Positions 15,723 to 28,585 of a stretch of 64,000 bases of DNA are shown here, one piece after another (position 1 is the stretch's first letter; the number at the start of each line of letters is the position of its first letter). Under the pieces are notes generated by a model. It was not told where the DNA came from. It saw only the letters and a program-made list of their open reading frames with translations, and ran no database searches. Where the stretch lies: the IMG/VR virus record IMGVR_UViG_3300031718_000001, positions 64,001 to 128,000 of that record. One strand, given 5' to 3'. This stretch comes from a virus. The position numbers were made by a program, and so were the translations under genes.

Positions 15723-16751
15723 ATGACAGAGCTGGCCACTGTTTCGGCTGGCGGGCAGCTAGCGCTGGCTCCGCAGGGCGGCGGCCTGCGACCGCGTGTT
15801 GCCTCCCGGAAGAGCGACGACTACGTAGCCCAGATCGAGGCACGCCGCGCCCGAACCGGCGGCCAGAGCCTGACTCGCGAGGCCAAGGTCCGCAAGATGG
15901 CCTTGATCTTGTCGGACGAGATGCACGGCTTCCGCAGGCTGGGAGTCGGCATGGTCGGCCCCATCCAGCTCAAGCTGCGCTACCAGGGCATCGTGCGCAA
16001 TGTCCTGGTCGAGGACCCGGTGACCCCGGGTACCCCGGTCGAGTACGACGTGTGGGATGACCTCGGCCAGGCCTACATCCTGTCCGGAACCGAGGGCGAA
16101 GTCCGGGTCACCCCGTTCGAGGGTAAGCGAATCCCTGTCCGGTTCTTCCGCATCGCCTCGCGCCCGGCCCTCCGCAAGGAGGACCTGTTCTACCTGCGGA
16201 TCAACGCGGTCGAGCAGGCTCAGGACGAGACCAAGCAGGCGATCCTCAAGCAGGAGGACGCCCGGCTGCTCGTCCTGCTCCAAGCCGCGATCACGGACTA
16301 CGCCACCCGGCCCGACCATGTGGTCACCCCGAACCACAACATCACCGAGGCCAGCGGCTACCTGACCCCGGGCTCGATGTACTCGGCCGTGGCCATGACC
16401 GACCTGCACGAGCTGCCCAGCGCGCGGATCCTGATCAACCCGTTTGACTACCGGGACATGTTCCGCTGGGATATCAACCAGACCGGCTGGGCTTTCAAGG
16501 ACAGGGTGGTCGCCGGCGAGACGATCACCAGCTTCGGCGAGTTCCAGATTCAGCGTTCGATCATCGTGCCCCAGGCCAAGATCTTCCTGGCCCCAGAGCC
16601 GAATTTCCTCGGTGTCTTCCCGATTCTTTACTCGCTCGATGTCGAGGAGAATCACAACGTCGAGGCATTCTGGAAGGGATGGGTGTTTGATGAGATGGTT
16701 GCCATGAGCATCCTGAACCCCCGCGGGCTCGCCAGCATCACCAAGTCGTAA
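15723..16751 (+). CDS. Major capsid protein (Bxz1-like)
   Basis: GPIQLKLRYQGIVRNVL..VTPFEGKRI..KEDLFYLR..QED recalled as close to Bxz1-type MCP; size and synteny fit. Confidence 0.85.
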   Translation: MTELATVSAGGQLALAPQGGGLRPRVASRKSDDYVAQIEARRARTGGQSLTREAKVRKMALILSDEMHGFRRLGVGMVGPIQLKLRYQGIVRNVLVEDPVTPGTPVEYDVWDDLGQAYILSGTEGEVRVTPFEGKRIPVRFFRIASRPALRKEDLFYLRINAVEQAQDETKQAILKQEDARLLVLLQAAITDYATRPDHVVTPNHNITEASGYLTPGSMYSAVAMTDLHELPSARILINPFDYRDMFRWDINQTGWAFKDRVVAGETITSFGEFQIQRSIIVPQAKIFLAPEPNFLGVFPILYSLDVEENHNVEAFWKGWVFDEMVAMSILNPRGLASITKS

Positions 16752-22200: not shown

Positions 22201-22230
22201 GGGGGCCGGCTCGGCTTGGAGGGTTCTTCG

Positions 22231-22617
22231 ATGCTGTATGACCCCGCTCGCGCTGCCCGCGTCTGCTACGCGGCGATCAGGCAGCTCCGGGAGGAGCAGG
22301 GGTTCGACAAGGGGCCGGTCTGGCGCCTGCTGGTCGTGGCCGAGCAGGACTGGCTGTGCGAGGCCTGCAACCTCGCCGCCAACGGCTGGATGTCGTACGA
22401 GATCTTCGCCGAGTGGCGCCGCGTCCGCGAGCTGGATGGCTGGCGCCTCGGGCAGGAGATCGACCACGCCAAGAAGACGCATCCTGAGCTGGTGGACTGG
22501 AAGACGCTGCCGGAGGACGTGCAGCAGCGGTACTTCCTGCTCCAGATGATGACCTCTGCGCTGCACCTGGTCGTTCCGCCCGCATTGACCGGTTCGTCAC
22601 CTGTCGCCGCAGTGTGA
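22231..22617 (+). CDS. RyR-domain protein
   Basis: EW...DGWRLG..DHAKKTHPELVDWKTLPE matches the RyR repeat consensus. Confidence 0.75.
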   Translation: MLYDPARAARVCYAAIRQLREEQGFDKGPVWRLLVVAEQDWLCEACNLAANGWMSYEIFAEWRRVRELDGWRLGQEIDHAKKTHPELVDWKTLPEDVQQRYFLLQMMTSALHLVVPPALTGSSPVAAV

Positions 22618-22748
22618 CGTTTTGGCCTACCTGGGCGCTGTGACGTTCTGGTAGGCCCGTATCCGGTACTAGCTGCTGTATCTTTTCTGGGCATACCGTT
22701 GCCCATTGGTGACAATTGTCCCAATGTCCCCAGGAAAGGTGCAGTTTA

Positions 22749-22970
22749 ATGCAAGTACCTCTTCCGACACTGCCCGCCGAGACTGAGCCGCTGCTCACTC
22801 CGGCGGAGGTGGCGGCGCTCTTCCGGGTTGACCCCAAGACCGTGACAAGGTGGGCGCGATCAGGGAAGGTCCCCTCGATCCGCACGGCTGGCGGCCACCG
22901 GAGATACCGGGAGAGCACGATCAGGGCGATGCTCAACGCGCCCGAGCCAGAGTCCGGCCAGGAAAGCTGA
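22749..22970 (+). CDS. bldC: BldC-family transcriptional regulator
   Basis: EPLLTPAEVAALFRVDPKTVTRWARSGK..SIRTAGGHRRYRE nearly matches actinobacterial BldC; GAAAGG RBS. Confidence 0.9.
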   Translation: MQVPLPTLPAETEPLLTPAEVAALFRVDPKTVTRWARSGKVPSIRTAGGHRRYRESTIRAMLNAPEPESGQES

Positions 22971-24134: not shown

Positions 24135-24208
24135 CGGGACGTAGCGCAGTCTGGCAGCGCGCCTGCCTTGGGCGCAGGAGGTCGCCGGTTCGGATCCGGC
24201 CGTCCCGA
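24135..24208 (+). tRNA. tRNA-Pro(UGG)
   Basis: Cloverleaf; loop CTTGGGC. Confidence 0.85.
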
Positions 24209-24268
24209 CAGCGCCCCGGGGTACGGTGATTACTTGTGCGTCCGCCAGGCGATCACGGAGTGTTCGGG

Positions 24269-25564
24269 ATGTCATCAGTTCTCAGGTCAGTCACGGGCTG
24301 GAAGGATCTCTGCCACCCGGGTAAGCGCCGTCTACAGCCCCAGGACCGGTCAATGGCCGGGCCGCTGGTGGCCGCGCCCTTCGAGCTTTCGGAGTTCCCT
24401 CCGGTCCCTGAATCGAGCCAGCTTCCCCCGCTCAACCCGGACCTGATCACCGGCTCCCTGGGCAGCATGACTGCCGGCCCTCAGACGTGCGCCGGAGACT
24501 TCTACGGCTACCTGTTCGCCGCCCAGCCGGGCCTGCGGGGGATGTTCCCGCCGCAGATGTCCGTGCAGAACGAGCGGCTGTTCGGCGCGCTCGTACGGAT
24601 TGTGAGCCTGCTAGATAAGCCGTACCTGCTGGCGGGCTACCTCGCCCAGCTCGGCGCCGACCACCGGAAATACGGCGTCTCCCCCGAGCACTACATGCCG
24701 GTGGGCGACGCGCTCATCCGGGCGCTGCGCCGCCACTGCAAGACATGGGACGAGTCCACCGAGCGCGCCTGGATGACGGCCTACTCCATGGCCGCGGACA
24801 TGATGATCACCGGGGCCGAGGCCCAGACCGGGCCGGCCGCCTGGCGCTGCCAGGTCGTCAAGCACGAGCGCCGCACCCACGACCTGGCCGTCGTCACGGT
24901 ACGGCCTGATCAGCCGCTGCCCTACGAGGCCGGCCAGTACGTGACGGTGCAGACCCCGCGCTGGCCCCAGGTCTGGCGGCACTTCTCGGTCGCCAACGCC
25001 CCGGCCGCTGACGGGCTGATCGACCTGCACATCCGGGCCGTGCCGGCCGGGTGGGTGAGCAATACCCTGGTCTCGCTGACCTCGCCGGGCGACGAGATCC
25101 TGCTCGGCCCGGCTGCCGGGGAGATGACGGCAGGCCACGCGAACGGCAGCGACCTGGTGTGCGTCGCGGGCGGCACGGGCCTGGCCCCGCTCCGGGCGAT
25201 TGTCGAAGATGTGCTGCGCAGCGATGAGGAGAACGTCGCGGCGGGCACGGGCGTGCGGCGCAACATCAGCCTGTTCCACGGCGCTCGCGATCCCCTCGGC
25301 TTCTACGACATGCCTCACCTTCGCGAGCTGTCCTCGTTCTACCCGTGGTTCCAGGTGGTGCCGGTTATCTCCGGCGATCACGATTTCGGCGGTCTCCGGG
25401 GCAATGTGGCTGAAATAGCCGTAAAGCATGGCGATTGGAGCGAACGGCATGCATTCATCTCGGGGCCGGAGGGAATGGTCCGGGATGCCGTTCTCGGCTT
25501 CCAGGCGGCTGAGGTGCCTGATGCACAGGTGCATTACGACGGCATCGAGGTGGGAGATGCATGA
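24269..25564 (+). CDS. hmp: Flavohaemoglobin-like protein (globin + FAD/NAD(P)H reductase)
   Basis: Globin FYGYLF (TyrB10), QNERL (GlnE7), DHRKYGV (HisF8); GQYV..RHFSVAN; VAGGTGLAPL; FISGPEGMV. Start 24269 or 24353. Confidence 0.85.
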   Translation: MSSVLRSVTGWKDLCHPGKRRLQPQDRSMAGPLVAAPFELSEFPPVPESSQLPPLNPDLITGSLGSMTAGPQTCAGDFYGYLFAAQPGLRGMFPPQMSVQNERLFGALVRIVSLLDKPYLLAGYLAQLGADHRKYGVSPEHYMPVGDALIRALRRHCKTWDESTERAWMTAYSMAADMMITGAEAQTGPAAWRCQVVKHERRTHDLAVVTVRPDQPLPYEAGQYVTVQTPRWPQVWRHFSVANAPAADGLIDLHIRAVPAGWVSNTLVSLTSPGDEILLGPAAGEMTAGHANGSDLVCVAGGTGLAPLRAIVEDVLRSDEENVAAGTGVRRNISLFHGARDPLGFYDMPHLRELSSFYPWFQVVPVISGDHDFGGLRGNVAEIAVKHGDWSERHAFISGPEGMVRDAVLGFQAAEVPDAQVHYDGIEVGDA

Positions 25565-26691
25565 CTCTGCGCGTGTTTCCCAGGCGCGTCCCGCAGGCTG
25601 GCGCGGCCGTGCTGGCCGAGGCCGAGATGTTCCTGGCTGAGTTCTACGCCGCCTGTCCTGCACCCGGTGAGGCATCCGCGCGGATGGCCCAGGTCCGCGA
25701 GTCCGTGCTCGCCACCGGCACCTACGAGCACACGCCGGAGGAGCTGGAGTACGCCGCCAGGATCGCCTGGCGGAACGCGGCCAGGTGCTCGGGGCGGGAC
25801 AAGTGGCGGACCCTGCGAGTGCGCGACTGCCGGACGGTATCGGACCCCAAGCAGGTCGCCGACGAGACCGTCGCCCACCTGCGCACTGCCACCAGCCACG
25901 GCCGGGTGCGATCCTGGATCACGGTGTTCGCCCCGGACAGGCCCGGTAATCCCGGCCCGCGGATCATCAACGGGCAGGCCGTCCGGTACGCCGGCTACCG
26001 CCAGCCGGACGGCGTGACCGGGGATCCGGTCAACGTGGCCCTGACCGACCTGGCGGTCAGTCTCGGCTGGCGGGGCCGCGGCGGGCGGTTCGACGTGCTG
26101 CCCCTCATAACTATGGACGGCAGCGGGGAGCTGTGCTGGTCGGACGTGCCGCCCGATGCGGTGCTGGAGGTCCCGATCAGCCACCCGGACTTCCGGTGGT
26201 TCAGCAAGCTCGGGCTGCGCTGGTACGCCATTCCGGTGATCACCGACATGTACCTGGAAGCCGGCGGCATACGCTATCCGTGCGCGCCGTTCAACGGCTG
26301 GTACCAGGCGAGCACAGAGGTCGGAGTCCGGAACCTCGGCGACGAGACCCGCTACAACGTCCTCCCCGATGTGGCCAGGGGCATGAAGCTGGACATGTCA
26401 TCGCCGAGCACGTTCTGGATGGACCGGGCCGCGGTCGAGCTGGCCGTGGCCGTCCATCACAGCTACCGCCGGGCCGGCGTAGTGGTCACCGACCACCAGG
26501 CCGAGACACGCAGGTTCGCCCACTGGGCTGCCCGGGAGGGCGAGGCCGGGCGCGAGGTGCCGGCGGACTGGGCGTGGATCGTCCCGCCAGTCAGCGGCAG
26601 CACGACCCCCGTGTTCCACCAGGAGTATCAGGCCGCGGTGCTGAAGCCCGGCTACTTCAGGCACGAGGATGGCCCGCTGATCAGCGGGTGA
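25561..26691 (+). CDS. nos: Nitric oxide synthase oxygenase
   Basis: AWRNAARCSGR (haem Cys), RYAGY, FDVLPL, LRWYAIP, PFNGWY..TEVG (substrate Glu), DH, ADWAWIVPP..TPVFH; ATGA overlap with hmp. Confidence 0.93.
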   Translation: MTLRVFPRRVPQAGAAVLAEAEMFLAEFYAACPAPGEASARMAQVRESVLATGTYEHTPEELEYAARIAWRNAARCSGRDKWRTLRVRDCRTVSDPKQVADETVAHLRTATSHGRVRSWITVFAPDRPGNPGPRIINGQAVRYAGYRQPDGVTGDPVNVALTDLAVSLGWRGRGGRFDVLPLITMDGSGELCWSDVPPDAVLEVPISHPDFRWFSKLGLRWYAIPVITDMYLEAGGIRYPCAPFNGWYQASTEVGVRNLGDETRYNVLPDVARGMKLDMSSPSTFWMDRAAVELAVAVHHSYRRAGVVVTDHQAETRRFAHWAAREGEAGREVPADWAWIVPPVSGSTTPVFHQEYQAAVLKPGYFRHEDGPLISG

Positions 26692-26765
26692 CGGGACATG
26701 GCGCAGTCCGGCAGCGCGCGTGCTCGGGGAGCACGAGGTCGTCAGTTCAAATCTGGCTGTCCCGA
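26692..26765 (+). tRNA. tRNA-Pro(GGG)
   Basis: Cloverleaf starting right after the nos stop; loop TCGGGGA (C33). Confidence 0.8.
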
Positions 26766-27110
26766 CGGAGCCGGATGTACACCGGCTTGCTGGAGCCCGG
26801 CCTTGCTAACCGGGTGCGGTGCTGAGTGTTAGCAGCACGGTGATCCGGCTGGGCGGCAGCGCCGTCCGATGGTGATCCAGGGACGATGCGAGGTCGTCGG
26901 CACCACTGACTGAGGTTCGGTACACGGCTGCGGGTAGAGGGCAGAAGGCGCTGCCACCCCTCGCAAGGGGGAGACTCCCGTTCGATTCGAGGATCGCCGC
27001 AGACGCAGTGGCCGCGTTTCCCTAGCAAGCGGAGGCGAAAACCGCAGGACGGCAGAAGCTTGCAGGTGGCCAGGGTGGTATAGCCGCGCGGCACTACCCT
27101 GGCGCCGATT

Positions 27111-28150: not shown

Positions 28151-28585
28151 GTGCCAAGAGACCGTGAGCTGTACAACGCTTACATGGCGTCGTACATGAA
28201 GAGCTGGTACGACCGCAGGCATGCCGAGGCTGTGGCGGCTCTGGGCGGGCACTGTGCACATCCTGGTTGTTATGAGGTCGATGACCTTCAGTTTGACCAC
28301 ATCGACCCGCAAACAAAGACCATGACGATCGCTAGGATGTGGACTGCCTCAGAGGAGCGGTTCCAGACAGAACTGAAGAAGTGCCAACTCCTTTGCTGGC
28401 CGCATCACCTGGAGAAGACGCTCGCAGAGAAGAACCAGCGCTCTGCGCGCGGAACGCACGGTACGGTGACCGCTTACCGCTACTGCGGACCTCCAAAGTG
28501 TGAGGCGTGCAGGGCCGCCAAGCGTTCCGCGCCCAGCTACAAGGCACGCGCCGCTAACTCAACTGGTAGAGAGCCGCACTCTTAA
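28151..28585 (+). CDS. HNH endonuclease overlapping tRNA-Lys
   Basis: CAHPGC..LQFDHIDP..ELKKCQLLCWPHH..KT; lower GC. Confidence 0.85.
   Translation: MPRDRELYNAYMASYMKSWYDRRHAEAVAALGGHCAHPGCYEVDDLQFDHIDPQTKTMTIARMWTASEERFQTELKKCQLLCWPHHLEKTLAEKNQRSARGTHGTVTAYRYCGPPKCEACRAAKRSAPSYKARAANSTGREPHS

What the first reader, a model, noticed from the sequence alone, without database searches (positions are those of the whole stretch)
24269..26691. Phage-encoded flavohaemoglobin-like reductase plus nitric oxide synthase operon inside a tRNA array
Seen: two intact genes coupled by an ATGA overlap, sitting between tRNA-Pro(UGG) and tRNA-Pro(GGG), the latter starting on the base after the nos stop. NOS keeps the haem Cys and substrate Glu, with one extra residue (WYQASTE versus the usual WYMxTE). 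The partner keeps globin TyrB10/GlnE7/HisF8 and FAD/NAD motifs. Known: most bacterial NOS lack a reductase and borrow one; flavohaemoglobins convert NO to nitrate; the Synechococcus PCC 7335 NOS fuses globin, oxygenase and reductase. Inference: a two-gene viral equivalent in which the flavoprotein feeds electrons to NOS and/or caps NO, letting the phage tune NO-sensitive actinobacterial regulators (WhiB-family Fe-S proteins, DevSR/DosRS), respiration or stress tolerance. I do not know of a described phage NOS module but could not search.
Basis: partly seen in the sequence, partly recalled or inferred. Interest (0 to 1): 0.92.

Follow-up and report, generated by a model that had tools for sequence, protein, structure and literature searches.

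The report
Phage nitric-oxide synthase with flavohaemoglobin partner
Several unrelated viruses of actinobacteria carry a tightly linked, well-conserved pair of genes for a nitric-oxide-making enzyme and a haem-flavin redox partner; I found no earlier description of such a virus gene, and the pair may reveal how stand-alone bacterial NO synthases get their electrons.

Summary
Confirmed. A complete 165-kb Bxz1-like actinobacterial myovirus carries fhb (likely start 24353) coupled by ATGA to an intact NOS oxygenase, between tRNA-Pro(UGG) and tRNA-Pro(GGG). Three independent assemblies repeat the layout; dN/dS is about 0.09 for both genes. It is accessory: 0 of 11 complete capsid relatives have NOS, and five show the empty spacer. 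The coupled pair recurs in 17 further phage or phage-like loci (three unrelated capsid families, at least four insertion sites) and forms its own clade (about 80 NOS, 68 FHb sequences) with all catalytic NOS residues kept and a shared WYQASTE insertion. Corrections: the partner is not a classic Hmp but a type II-like actinomycete flavohaemoglobin (AspF7, no GluH23), whose characterised Mtb member is a poor NO dioxygenase; and the pairing is host-derived, with both genes closest to uncultured Streptosporangiaceae. The scan noted that host pair before on other DNA (e1-4022959). One host lineage now carries the phage-type nos, probably by back-transfer. Best guess (0.4): FHb feeds NAD(P)H electrons to NOS; main rival (0.3): it removes NO. 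No activity is shown. No paper on phage NOS was found.

The parts
24135..24209 (+). tRNA-Pro(UGG), upstream flank of the inserted module
   Evidence: ARAGORN; same tRNA flanks a short empty spacer in relatives
24210..24352 (+).
24353..25564 (+). fhb: type II-like flavohaemoglobin (globin + FAD + NAD domains), 403 aa; TyrB10, PheCD1, GlnE7, LeuE11, HisF8, TyrG5, TyrH12 kept; AspF7 and AlaH23; phage-specific AsnE8 and ~10-residue insertion in the NAD domain
25561..26691 (+). nos: stand-alone NOS oxygenase domain, 376 aa; Cys76, Trp247, Tyr248, Glu253, Arg257, Trp339, Ile227 gate; clade-specific RCSGRDKW and WYQASTE
25561..25564 (+). ATGA stop/start overlap (translational coupling)
   Evidence: coupling kept with different junction sequences in all 18 phage loci
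26692..26766 (+). tRNA-Pro(GGG), begins on the base after the nos stop
   Evidence: same in L184, L185
23300..32873 (+). Array of 38 tRNA genes that hosts the module
15723..16751 (+). Major capsid protein (phrog_2522; 59% to Gordonia phage RedWattleHog and cluster C mycobacteriophages): fixes the phage context
43725..45698 (+). Tail sheath protein (myovirus context)

Best explanation
A mobile two-gene cargo that lets the infected actinobacterial cell make nitric oxide without relying on a host reductase. SHOWN: both genes are intact, coupled, under purifying selection, travel together between unrelated phages, and derive from a host lineage in which they were already neighbours. INFERRED from family knowledge: the NOS dimer binds haem, arginine and a host tetrahydrofolate-type pterin and makes citrulline plus NO. 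INFERRED (the step I commit to): the type II-like flavohaemoglobin takes electrons from NAD(P)H via FAD, and its globin haem serves as the one-electron shuttle to the NOS haem, the role of FMN in animal NOS and of the Fe-S centre in Sorangium NOS; it may also burn some NO. INFERRED: the mRNA is cut out of the tRNA precursor, so expression rides on the tRNA operon. SPECULATIVE: the benefit is control of the host's redox and respiratory state or of NO-sensing regulators during infection.
For: NOS residues invariant in 80/80 phage-clade sequences: Trp70, Arg75, Cys76, Arg79, Pro225, Met230, Phe244, Trp247, Glu253, Arg257, Asp261, Arg264, Trp337, Trp339; AF2 model pLDDT 90, TM 0.90-0.91, rmsd 1.7-1.8 A to B. 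subtilis NOS. dN/dS 0.09 for both genes against 97%-identical relatives, 0.23-0.45 in more distant pairs. In all 18 phage or phage-like loci the NOS has fhb directly upstream with overlapping, abutting or nearly abutting stop/start codons of differing sequence; about 33 further NOS/FHb hits share contig lengths; the two gene trees co-vary (Mantel rho 0.38, p 0.001; shared descent alone can give this). No flavodoxin, Fer4_13 ferredoxin or P450 found in the four phage records searched. The partner matches M. tuberculosis type II FHb at 13/16 and 12/16 in two diagnostic segments against 5/16 and 6/16 for type I FHP; that class passes NADPH electrons through FAD to haem (PMC8883573) and shows little NO dioxygenase activity (PMC3820574); LysF7, argued there to be needed for NOD, is Asp/Glu in 68/68. 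Clade-wide NOS changes lie just after the haem Cys and 2-3 residues after Trp247, the Trp proposed to bridge FMN and haem (PMC6451115; that these face the reductase side is my inference), and the phage FHb has its own ~10-residue insertion (65/68 vs 0/81). Self-sufficient Sorangium-type NOS fusions use the same FAD/NAD Pfam modules. A Micromonospora plasmid has independently coupled nos and an FHb by a 1-base overlap.
Against: No activity, expression or binding data. Bacterial NOS work with promiscuous host donors (title of Gusarov 2008 cited), so a dedicated one is not required. Characterised NOS take electrons from FMN or Fe-S, not from a globin haem, and flavoHb haem potentials are usually more positive than the NOS haem (own knowledge). 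Related FHbs occur in at least six phage records with no NOS, so FHb has a NOS-independent use. One host lineage pairs the phage-type NOS with a host-type FHb that lacks the phage-specific changes, which argues against strict co-adaptation. The globin keeps TyrB10/GlnE7/LeuE11/TyrG5/TyrH12, more Hmp-like than Mtb FHb. No FHb-NOS fusion protein among the top long hits (weak).
Confidence: 0.4

Rival explanations
1. Split SyNOS logic: NOS runs on host flavodoxin/ferredoxin, and the FHb is an NO dioxygenase that caps NO, so the net reaction is arginine to citrulline plus nitrate/nitrite, protecting Fe-S proteins and respiration.
For: Distal-pocket residues of NO dioxygenases are conserved in 67-68/68. 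SyNOS globin oxidises NO to nitrate (PMC12922734; PMC6104048). S. coelicolor uses a flavohaemoglobin to set NO levels that govern DevSR, antibiotics and differentiation (PMC4766573). NOS never seen without fhb in phages fits a need for detoxification equally well. A separate IMG/VR record pairs an unrelated NOS with a globin that has no reductase domain.
Against: AspF7 for Lys, Ala at H23, no C-terminal ExF; NCBIfam Hmp model scores 93 against cut-off 432. The characterised member of this class is a poor NOD. Making NO only to destroy it costs NADPH with no clear gain for a lytic phage.
Confidence: 0.3
2. The clade's NOS has changed chemistry: the insertion and linked substitutions alter substrate or product (another guanidine or N-hydroxy compound, nitration, or oxidase/peroxidase activity), and the pair is a different redox enzyme system.
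For: Long stem (0.49 changes/site, 100/100); insertion inside the substrate motif in 115 sequences plus fixed changes M->Q249, N->A295 (115/115), H->Q313, H->F322, N->H72; lower pLDDT (83) at residues 241-250.
Against: All arginine-, haem- and pterin-binding residues are retained; the model places the extra residue at the start of the Glu253 helix; no P450 or other tailoring enzyme in the phages searched.
Confidence: 0.15
3. The FHb is the main cargo (antioxidant or disulfide-reducing electron carrier); NOS is kept because it limits FHb toxicity or gives a parallel stress benefit, with no direct contact between the proteins.
For: Stand-alone type II-like fhb genes were captured several times by the same phage groups, often with a DivIVA-domain gene. 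In S. epidermidis NOS-derived nitrite limits Hmp superoxide toxicity (PMC10594633); NOS-derived nitrite stimulates respiration in S. aureus (PMC5539425).
Against: The two cysteines needed for Mtb FHb disulfide reductase activity are absent. The staphylococcal control is transcriptional and would not need translational coupling. NOS is under the same purifying selection as fhb.
Confidence: 0.13
4. Artefact or neutral passenger: chimeric assembly, or a recently picked-up host operon that is decaying.
Against: Same junctions in three independent assemblies; dN/dS 0.09; GC3 like capsid genes; deep phage-only FHb clade; three capsid families.
Confidence: 0.02

Closest known systems
Stand-alone bacterial NOS oxygenases (B. 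subtilis bsNOS, PDB 2an2/4d3k; actinobacterial NOS of Nonomuraea, Actinomadura, Streptomyces)
   Same: Oxygenase-only protein, same fold (TM 0.9), haem Cys, substrate Glu, pterin Arg/Trp, Ile gate; 56-58% identity to named actinobacterial NOS.
   Different: Virus-encoded; one-residue insertion and Met->Gln in the substrate motif; RCSGRDKW instead of RCIGRLYW; always coupled to a flavoprotein in phages.
Type II actinomycete flavohaemoglobins (M. tuberculosis Rv0385, M. smegmatis MSMEG_0719; PMC8883573)
   Same: GxDHRKYGV (AspF7-HisF8), short CD and H-helix linkers, D(x)8GxxP motif, C-terminal Asp in place of Glu394.
   Different: No G(x)7GS D-lactate motif, no Cys289/Cys360, keeps LeuE11 and TyrH12, AsnE8 and an NAD-domain insertion specific to phages; linked to nos.
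Type I flavohaemoglobin / NO dioxygenase (E. coli Hmp 1gvh, R. eutropha FHP 1cqx)
   Same: Domain order and distal pocket TyrB10/GlnE7/LeuE11, HisF8, TyrG5, TyrH12.
   Different: LysF7, GluH23 and terminal ExF missing; NCBIfam equivalog score 93 vs cut-off 432.
SyNOS of Synechococcus PCC 7335 (PMC6104048, PMC12922734)
   Same: Globin, NOS oxygenase and an FNR-like module brought together; possible NO synthesis plus NO removal.
   Different: SyNOS is one chain with flavodoxin and C2 domains and Ca2+ control; here two genes, no flavodoxin, no common origin shown.
Sorangium-type self-sufficient NOS (FAD_binding_6/NAD_binding_1 + BFD-like 2Fe-2S + NOS; hits)
   Same: Same Pfam reductase modules next to a one-electron centre and a NOS oxygenase.
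   Different: Fused, uses Fe-S rather than a globin haem as shuttle; bacterial chromosome.
Chromosomal/plasmid fhb-nos neighbours in Actinomycetota (uncultured Streptosporangiaceae, Kribbella, Nocardioides, Aeromicrobium, Embleya, Micromonospora plasmid NZ_CP107937; scan note e1-4022959)
   Same: Same two gene families adjacent; 15-16 of the 80 best genome loci have an fhb within about 1.3 kb of nos.
   Different: Usually convergent or separated by a DivIVA-domain gene or a spacer; canonical WYMxTE except in the one lineage with the phage-type nos.
Phage auxiliary metabolic genes carried in tRNA arrays
   Same: Host-derived, accessory, patchily distributed cargo in tRNA spacers or at the end of the tail module.
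   Different: No NOS or flavohaemoglobin family in PHROGs or in annotated isolate phages; no paper found.

Membership tests
NOS oxygenase family | Full-length NO_synthase domain and fold | tested here: met
   Pfam 452 bits over 4-359/362; TM 0.90-0.92 to bsNOS/eNOS
NOS oxygenase family | Haem thiolate Cys and haem-stacking Trp/Phe | tested here: met
   Cys76, Trp70, Phe244 in 80/80
NOS oxygenase family | Arginine-binding residues (Gln257, Tyr341, Trp366, Tyr367, Glu371, Asp/Asn376 in iNOS numbering) | tested here: met
   Q139, Y222, W247, Y248, E253, N258 present and conserved
NOS oxygenase family | Canonical spacing WYMxTE | tested here: not met
   One-residue insertion, WYQASTE, in the whole clade; effect on the site not measurable here
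NOS oxygenase family | Pterin/dimer residues (Arg375, Trp455, Trp457, Phe470, His471) | tested here: met
   R257, W337, W339 80/80; aromatic at 352 79/80; H353 77/80
NOS oxygenase family | Arginine-dependent NO and citrulline formation | not testable with these tools
   needs assay
Type I flavohaemoglobin (Hmp, NO dioxygenase) | Globin + FAD + NAD domains with TyrB10, PheCD1, GlnE7, HisF8 | tested here: met
Type I flavohaemoglobin (Hmp, NO dioxygenase) | LysF7, GluH23, C-terminal ExF; NCBIfam PRK13289 cut-off | tested here: not met
   Asp131, Ala183 (by helix count from TyrH12), Asp424; 93 vs 432 bits
Type I flavohaemoglobin (Hmp, NO dioxygenase) | NAD(P)H- and O2-dependent NO to nitrate activity | not testable with these tools
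   needs assay
Type II actinomycete flavohaemoglobin (Rv0385 class) | D(x)8GxxP motif and F-helix motif GxDHRKYGV | tested here: met
   D295..P307 (D in 67/68); 13/16 and 12/16 identities to the Mtb row of Fig. S1 of PMC8883573
Type II actinomycete flavohaemoglobin (Rv0385 class) | D-LDH-type G(x)7GS motif and Cys289/Cys360 (mycobacterial members; the paper says the motif is absent in many actinomycete members) | tested here: not met
   GG instead of GS in 68/68; no Cys at either position
Type II actinomycete flavohaemoglobin (Rv0385 class) | Grouping with Rv0385 in a tree | not tested
   Rv0385 was available only as figure text, so no tree; hence 'type II-like'
Type II actinomycete flavohaemoglobin (Rv0385 class) | Hexacoordinate haem, low NOD activity | not testable with these tools
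   needs spectroscopy
SyNOS-type globin-NOS | Single chain globin-oxygenase-flavodoxin-FNR | tested here: not met
   Two genes; no flavodoxin in the phage; no fusion among long hits
Phage auxiliary metabolic gene | Embedded in a complete virus genome, host-derived, accessory, under purifying selection | tested here: met
Phage auxiliary metabolic gene | Expressed in infection and affects host metabolism or phage fitness | not testable with these tools

The most novel reading that the evidence does not exclude
Actinophages have evolved a dedicated two-component NO synthase in which a type II flavohaemoglobin is the native reductase, with the globin haem as electron shuttle; they use NO to reprogramme or protect the infected cell, have spread the module across unrelated lineages, and have handed the remodelled nos back to a host lineage. 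This would be the first viral NO synthesis, the first dedicated stand-alone partner of a bacterial NOS, and a physiological role for type II flavohaemoglobins.
Probability: 0.3. Interest if true: 0.93.

Novelty: new variant of a known kind. Interest (0 to 1): 0.8.

Why it matters
NO is a signal and a stress agent in actinobacteria, where it controls DevSR, antibiotic production and differentiation (PMC4766573). A virus that makes or tunes it would be a new class of host manipulation; I found no paper, PHROG family or isolate phage with a NOS. The module also makes two open questions testable with two small soluble proteins: which reductase stand-alone bacterial NOS use in vivo, and what type II flavohaemoglobins are for. 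The conflict between the two gene trees points to a phage-remodelled enzyme returning to bacterial chromosomes. The limits: both protein families and their pairing in hosts are not new, the module is rare among close relatives, and no activity is shown.

Tried and rejected
Complex prediction NOS + FHb: 'no answer', score 0.00; not used as evidence either way. Fusion search: no globin-FAD-NAD-NOS fusion among the best 120 long hits; weak. Shared promoter motif upstream of phage fhb genes: none found; no sigma-70 promoter or terminator on the + strand near the module. WhiB as reason for the module: present in G000 and G033 but also in NOS-less G003, so not discriminating. P450-linked nitration (TxtE/RufO style): no P450 in the phage records searched. 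Start at 24269: rejected in favour of 24353. 'Hmp-type' label: rejected by residue tests. Back-transfer of nos to hosts: the gene-tree conflict is shown, but the direction is not: the AU test does not reject phage monophyly (p 0.325). Insertion-type nos pattern was not found in 251 genomes of the donor-like family (sample only, no positive control run). The two Staphylococcus 'phage' NOS hits are unannotated records, one of 1.5 kb, 40-42% identical; I treat them as probable host contamination, not checked. Gupta 2011/2012 papers not held. One search ended in a script error after the values I cite had printed.
Full report
OBSERVATION. The window holds two intact + strand genes, a globin-FAD-NAD protein ending at 25564 and a NOS oxygenase at 25561-26691, overlapping by ATGA. 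They lie between tRNA-Pro(UGG) 24135-24209 and tRNA-Pro(GGG) 26692-26766 in an array of 38 tRNAs. The first gene most likely starts at ATG 24353, not 24269. The genome is a 165,085-bp virus record with terminal repeats, 100% complete, with terminase, portal, major head, sheath and baseplate genes; its capsid is 59% identical to Gordonia phage RedWattleHog and cluster C mycobacteriophages. It also encodes WhiB. An actinobacterial host is inferred; habitat and host are not shown by the tools.

NOT AN ARTEFACT, NOT DECAYING. Three assemblies from other samples (JGI and ENA; one 164.6-kb contig) carry a 97%-identical pair with the same overlap; the two long ones show the same tRNA flanks. Against these, dN/dS is 0.09 for both genes; more distant phage pairs give 0.23-0.45, where GC-rich third positions compress dS. 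GC3 equals that of the capsid genes.

ACCESSORY AND MOBILE. None of 27 capsid relatives, 11 of them complete, has a NOS. Five show the same tRNA order with only about 190-450 bases between Pro(UGG) and Pro(GGG), so the module was inserted there. The same fhb-nos pair occurs in 17 other phage or phage-like loci, two of which are near-copies. All have overlapping, abutting or nearly abutting stop/start codons, with different junction sequences. The carriers include three capsid families, phrog_2522, phrog_29 and phrog_1650; G033 and G034 share only 3 and 5 other genes with this genome. Insertion sites differ: Pro/Pro, Thr(GGU)/Gly(GCC), after Arg(CCU), or after the tail genes with no tRNA nearby. 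About 33 NOS and FHb protein hits share contig lengths; for most of these short contigs viral origin is assumed from the clade, not shown.

ORIGIN. The phage FHbs form one clade (68 sequences, support 1.0), sister to FHbs of uncultured Streptosporangiaceae that lie convergent to a nos gene. The insertion-type NOS clade (100/100, stem 0.49) is sister to the NOS of the same hosts. So both genes most likely came from one host lineage in which they were already neighbours. Linkage is common in Actinomycetota: 15-16 of the 80 best genome loci have an fhb within about 1.3 kb, with fhb-DivIVA-domain-nos in Kribbella, tandem pairs in Embleya and a coupled nos-fhb on a Micromonospora plasmid. The scan had noted a host pair before (e1-4022959); I confirmed the linkage independently and did not test its SARP claim. 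A shallow group of 36 NOS, of which the loci with readable context are chromosomal (next to ProRS, CysRS, transporters), has the phage-type insertion but host-type FHb. The conflict is strong: joining their NOS with the donor-like hosts is rejected (p 1.7e-114), and joining their FHb with the phages is rejected (p 2.6e-5); L087-L092 distance is 1.65 for NOS and 0.53 for FHb, whereas L092-L112 is 0.62 and 0.61. The simplest reading is replacement of the host nos by the phage version, but phage monophyly is not rejected (p 0.325), so direction remains inferred. L087 lies in G036, marked unpublished; the statements that this genome has a single, phage-type NOS and the L087 distances rest on it; L003, L007, L009, L011 and L012 show the same grouping without it.

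THE NOS. Haem, arginine and pterin residues are conserved, the main ones in 80/80 phage-clade sequences; the gate is Ile as in other bacterial NOS (PMC6104048). The model matches bsNOS at TM 0.9, rmsd 1.7-1.8 A. The clade is remodelled: RCSGRDKW for RCIGRLYW, an extra residue and Met->Gln after Trp247-Tyr248, and fixed N->A295, H->Q313, H->F322. The equivalent Trp is proposed to bridge FMN and haem in iNOS (PMC6451115).

THE PARTNER. It keeps TyrB10, PheCD1, GlnE7, LeuE11, HisF8, TyrG5 and TyrH12, but has Asp at F7, Ala at H23 and no terminal ExF, and scores 93 against a cut-off of 432 for the Hmp equivalog. Two diagnostic segments match M. tuberculosis type II FHb at 13/16 and 12/16, type I FHP at 5/16 and 6/16; the D(x)8GxxP motif is present, the D-lactate motif and both catalytic cysteines are not. 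Rv0385 is reported as a poor NO dioxygenase, and LysF7 as needed for that activity (PMC3820574; the latter cites a submitted manuscript). Phage members add AsnE8 (67/68 vs Arg 81/81) and a ~10-residue insertion. Related FHbs without NOS occur in at least six phage records, often with a DivIVA-domain gene, so the dependence is one-way: phage NOS was never seen without FHb, FHb often without NOS.

MECHANISM. Most likely (0.4) the FHb supplies NAD(P)H electrons to the NOS, making a self-sufficient NO source; no flavodoxin, Fer4_13 ferredoxin or P450 was found in the phage records searched, and Sorangium-type NOS fusions use the same FAD/NAD modules. The main rival (0.3) is NO capping with host-supplied electrons, as in SyNOS; the two can coexist. 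Altered chemistry (0.15) and an FHb-centred stress role with NOS as safeguard (0.13; PMC10594633) remain open. With no promoter or terminator match, and the stop codon abutting a tRNA, the mRNA is probably released by tRNA processing (inference). The benefit to the phage is untested: candidates are respiration (PMC5539425), oxidative-stress tolerance, and NO-sensing regulators (PMC4766573).

NOVELTY. No NOS or FHb family in PHROGs, no convincing hit in 50,697 isolate phage records, no paper in three searches (the library lacks most subscription journals). The parts and their pairing in hosts are not new, so I class it as a new variant of a known kind: an apparently undescribed viral cargo with a remodelled enzyme clade. 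Interest 0.8.

Noticed in passing
L293:5941-7793, L294:181-2531, L296:5932-7056, L288:1573-3280, L295:5455-6570: Phages without NOS carry a type II-like fhb, in L288, L293 and L294 followed by a DivIVA-domain gene; in L293 and L296 it sits next to a gene that looks like the ~215-aa neighbour of fhb-nos in L169 (by eye). Kribbella has fhb-DivIVA-nos, and L179 has a DivIVA gene after nos. The three genes may belong to one undescribed pathway.
   Followed up: partly
L268:1161-3227 (G001, 162-kb relative, capsid 97% identical): Separate capture of an fhb (47% identical) with no nos, convergent with a PNPOx-like flavin-binding gene, in the tail region.
   Followed up: partly
L170:8871-11727 (IMG/VR record G032, 134 kb, locus GC 42%): An unrelated canonical NOS followed by a globin with an N-terminal extension and no reductase, near a response regulator; possibly a second viral NOS capture, but no terminase was found, so viral status is unconfirmed.
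   Followed up: partly
L003, L007-L009, L011, L012, L014, L087: Chromosomal copies of the phage-type nos beside a host-type fhb, in both convergent and tandem order; in L008 a tRNA-Thr and a tyrosine integrase lie just upstream.
   Followed up: partly
L313:4881-7303 (Micromonospora zamorensis plasmid NZ_CP107937): nos and fhb coupled in the reverse order by a 1-base overlap, upstream of tryptophan 2,3-dioxygenase and a PLP enzyme.
   Followed up: partly
window 22216-22970: RyR-domain gene and an HTH_17/MerR (BldC-like) gene precede the tRNA array; the same pair is in L182-L185.
   Followed up: partly
genome C1:44055-44210 (outside the window; L173:3950-4210, minus): Phage WhiB-family gene; the translated stretch has three of the four usual cysteines in the standard spacing (C..., CxxC present, the second position not evident).
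   Followed up: partly
window 28151-28585: HNH endonuclease gene inside the tRNA array, overlapping the start of tRNA-Lys(CUU).
   Followed up: no
L017:5991-6386, L180:8569-8964: Phage-like contigs carry a ribosomal protein L7/L12 gene two genes upstream of fhb-nos.
   Followed up: no
L184:7656-13134: After tRNA-Pro(CGG) this assembly runs into recA and dnaE instead of the rest of the tRNA array: a rearrangement or mis-assembly relative to the window and L185.
   Followed up: no
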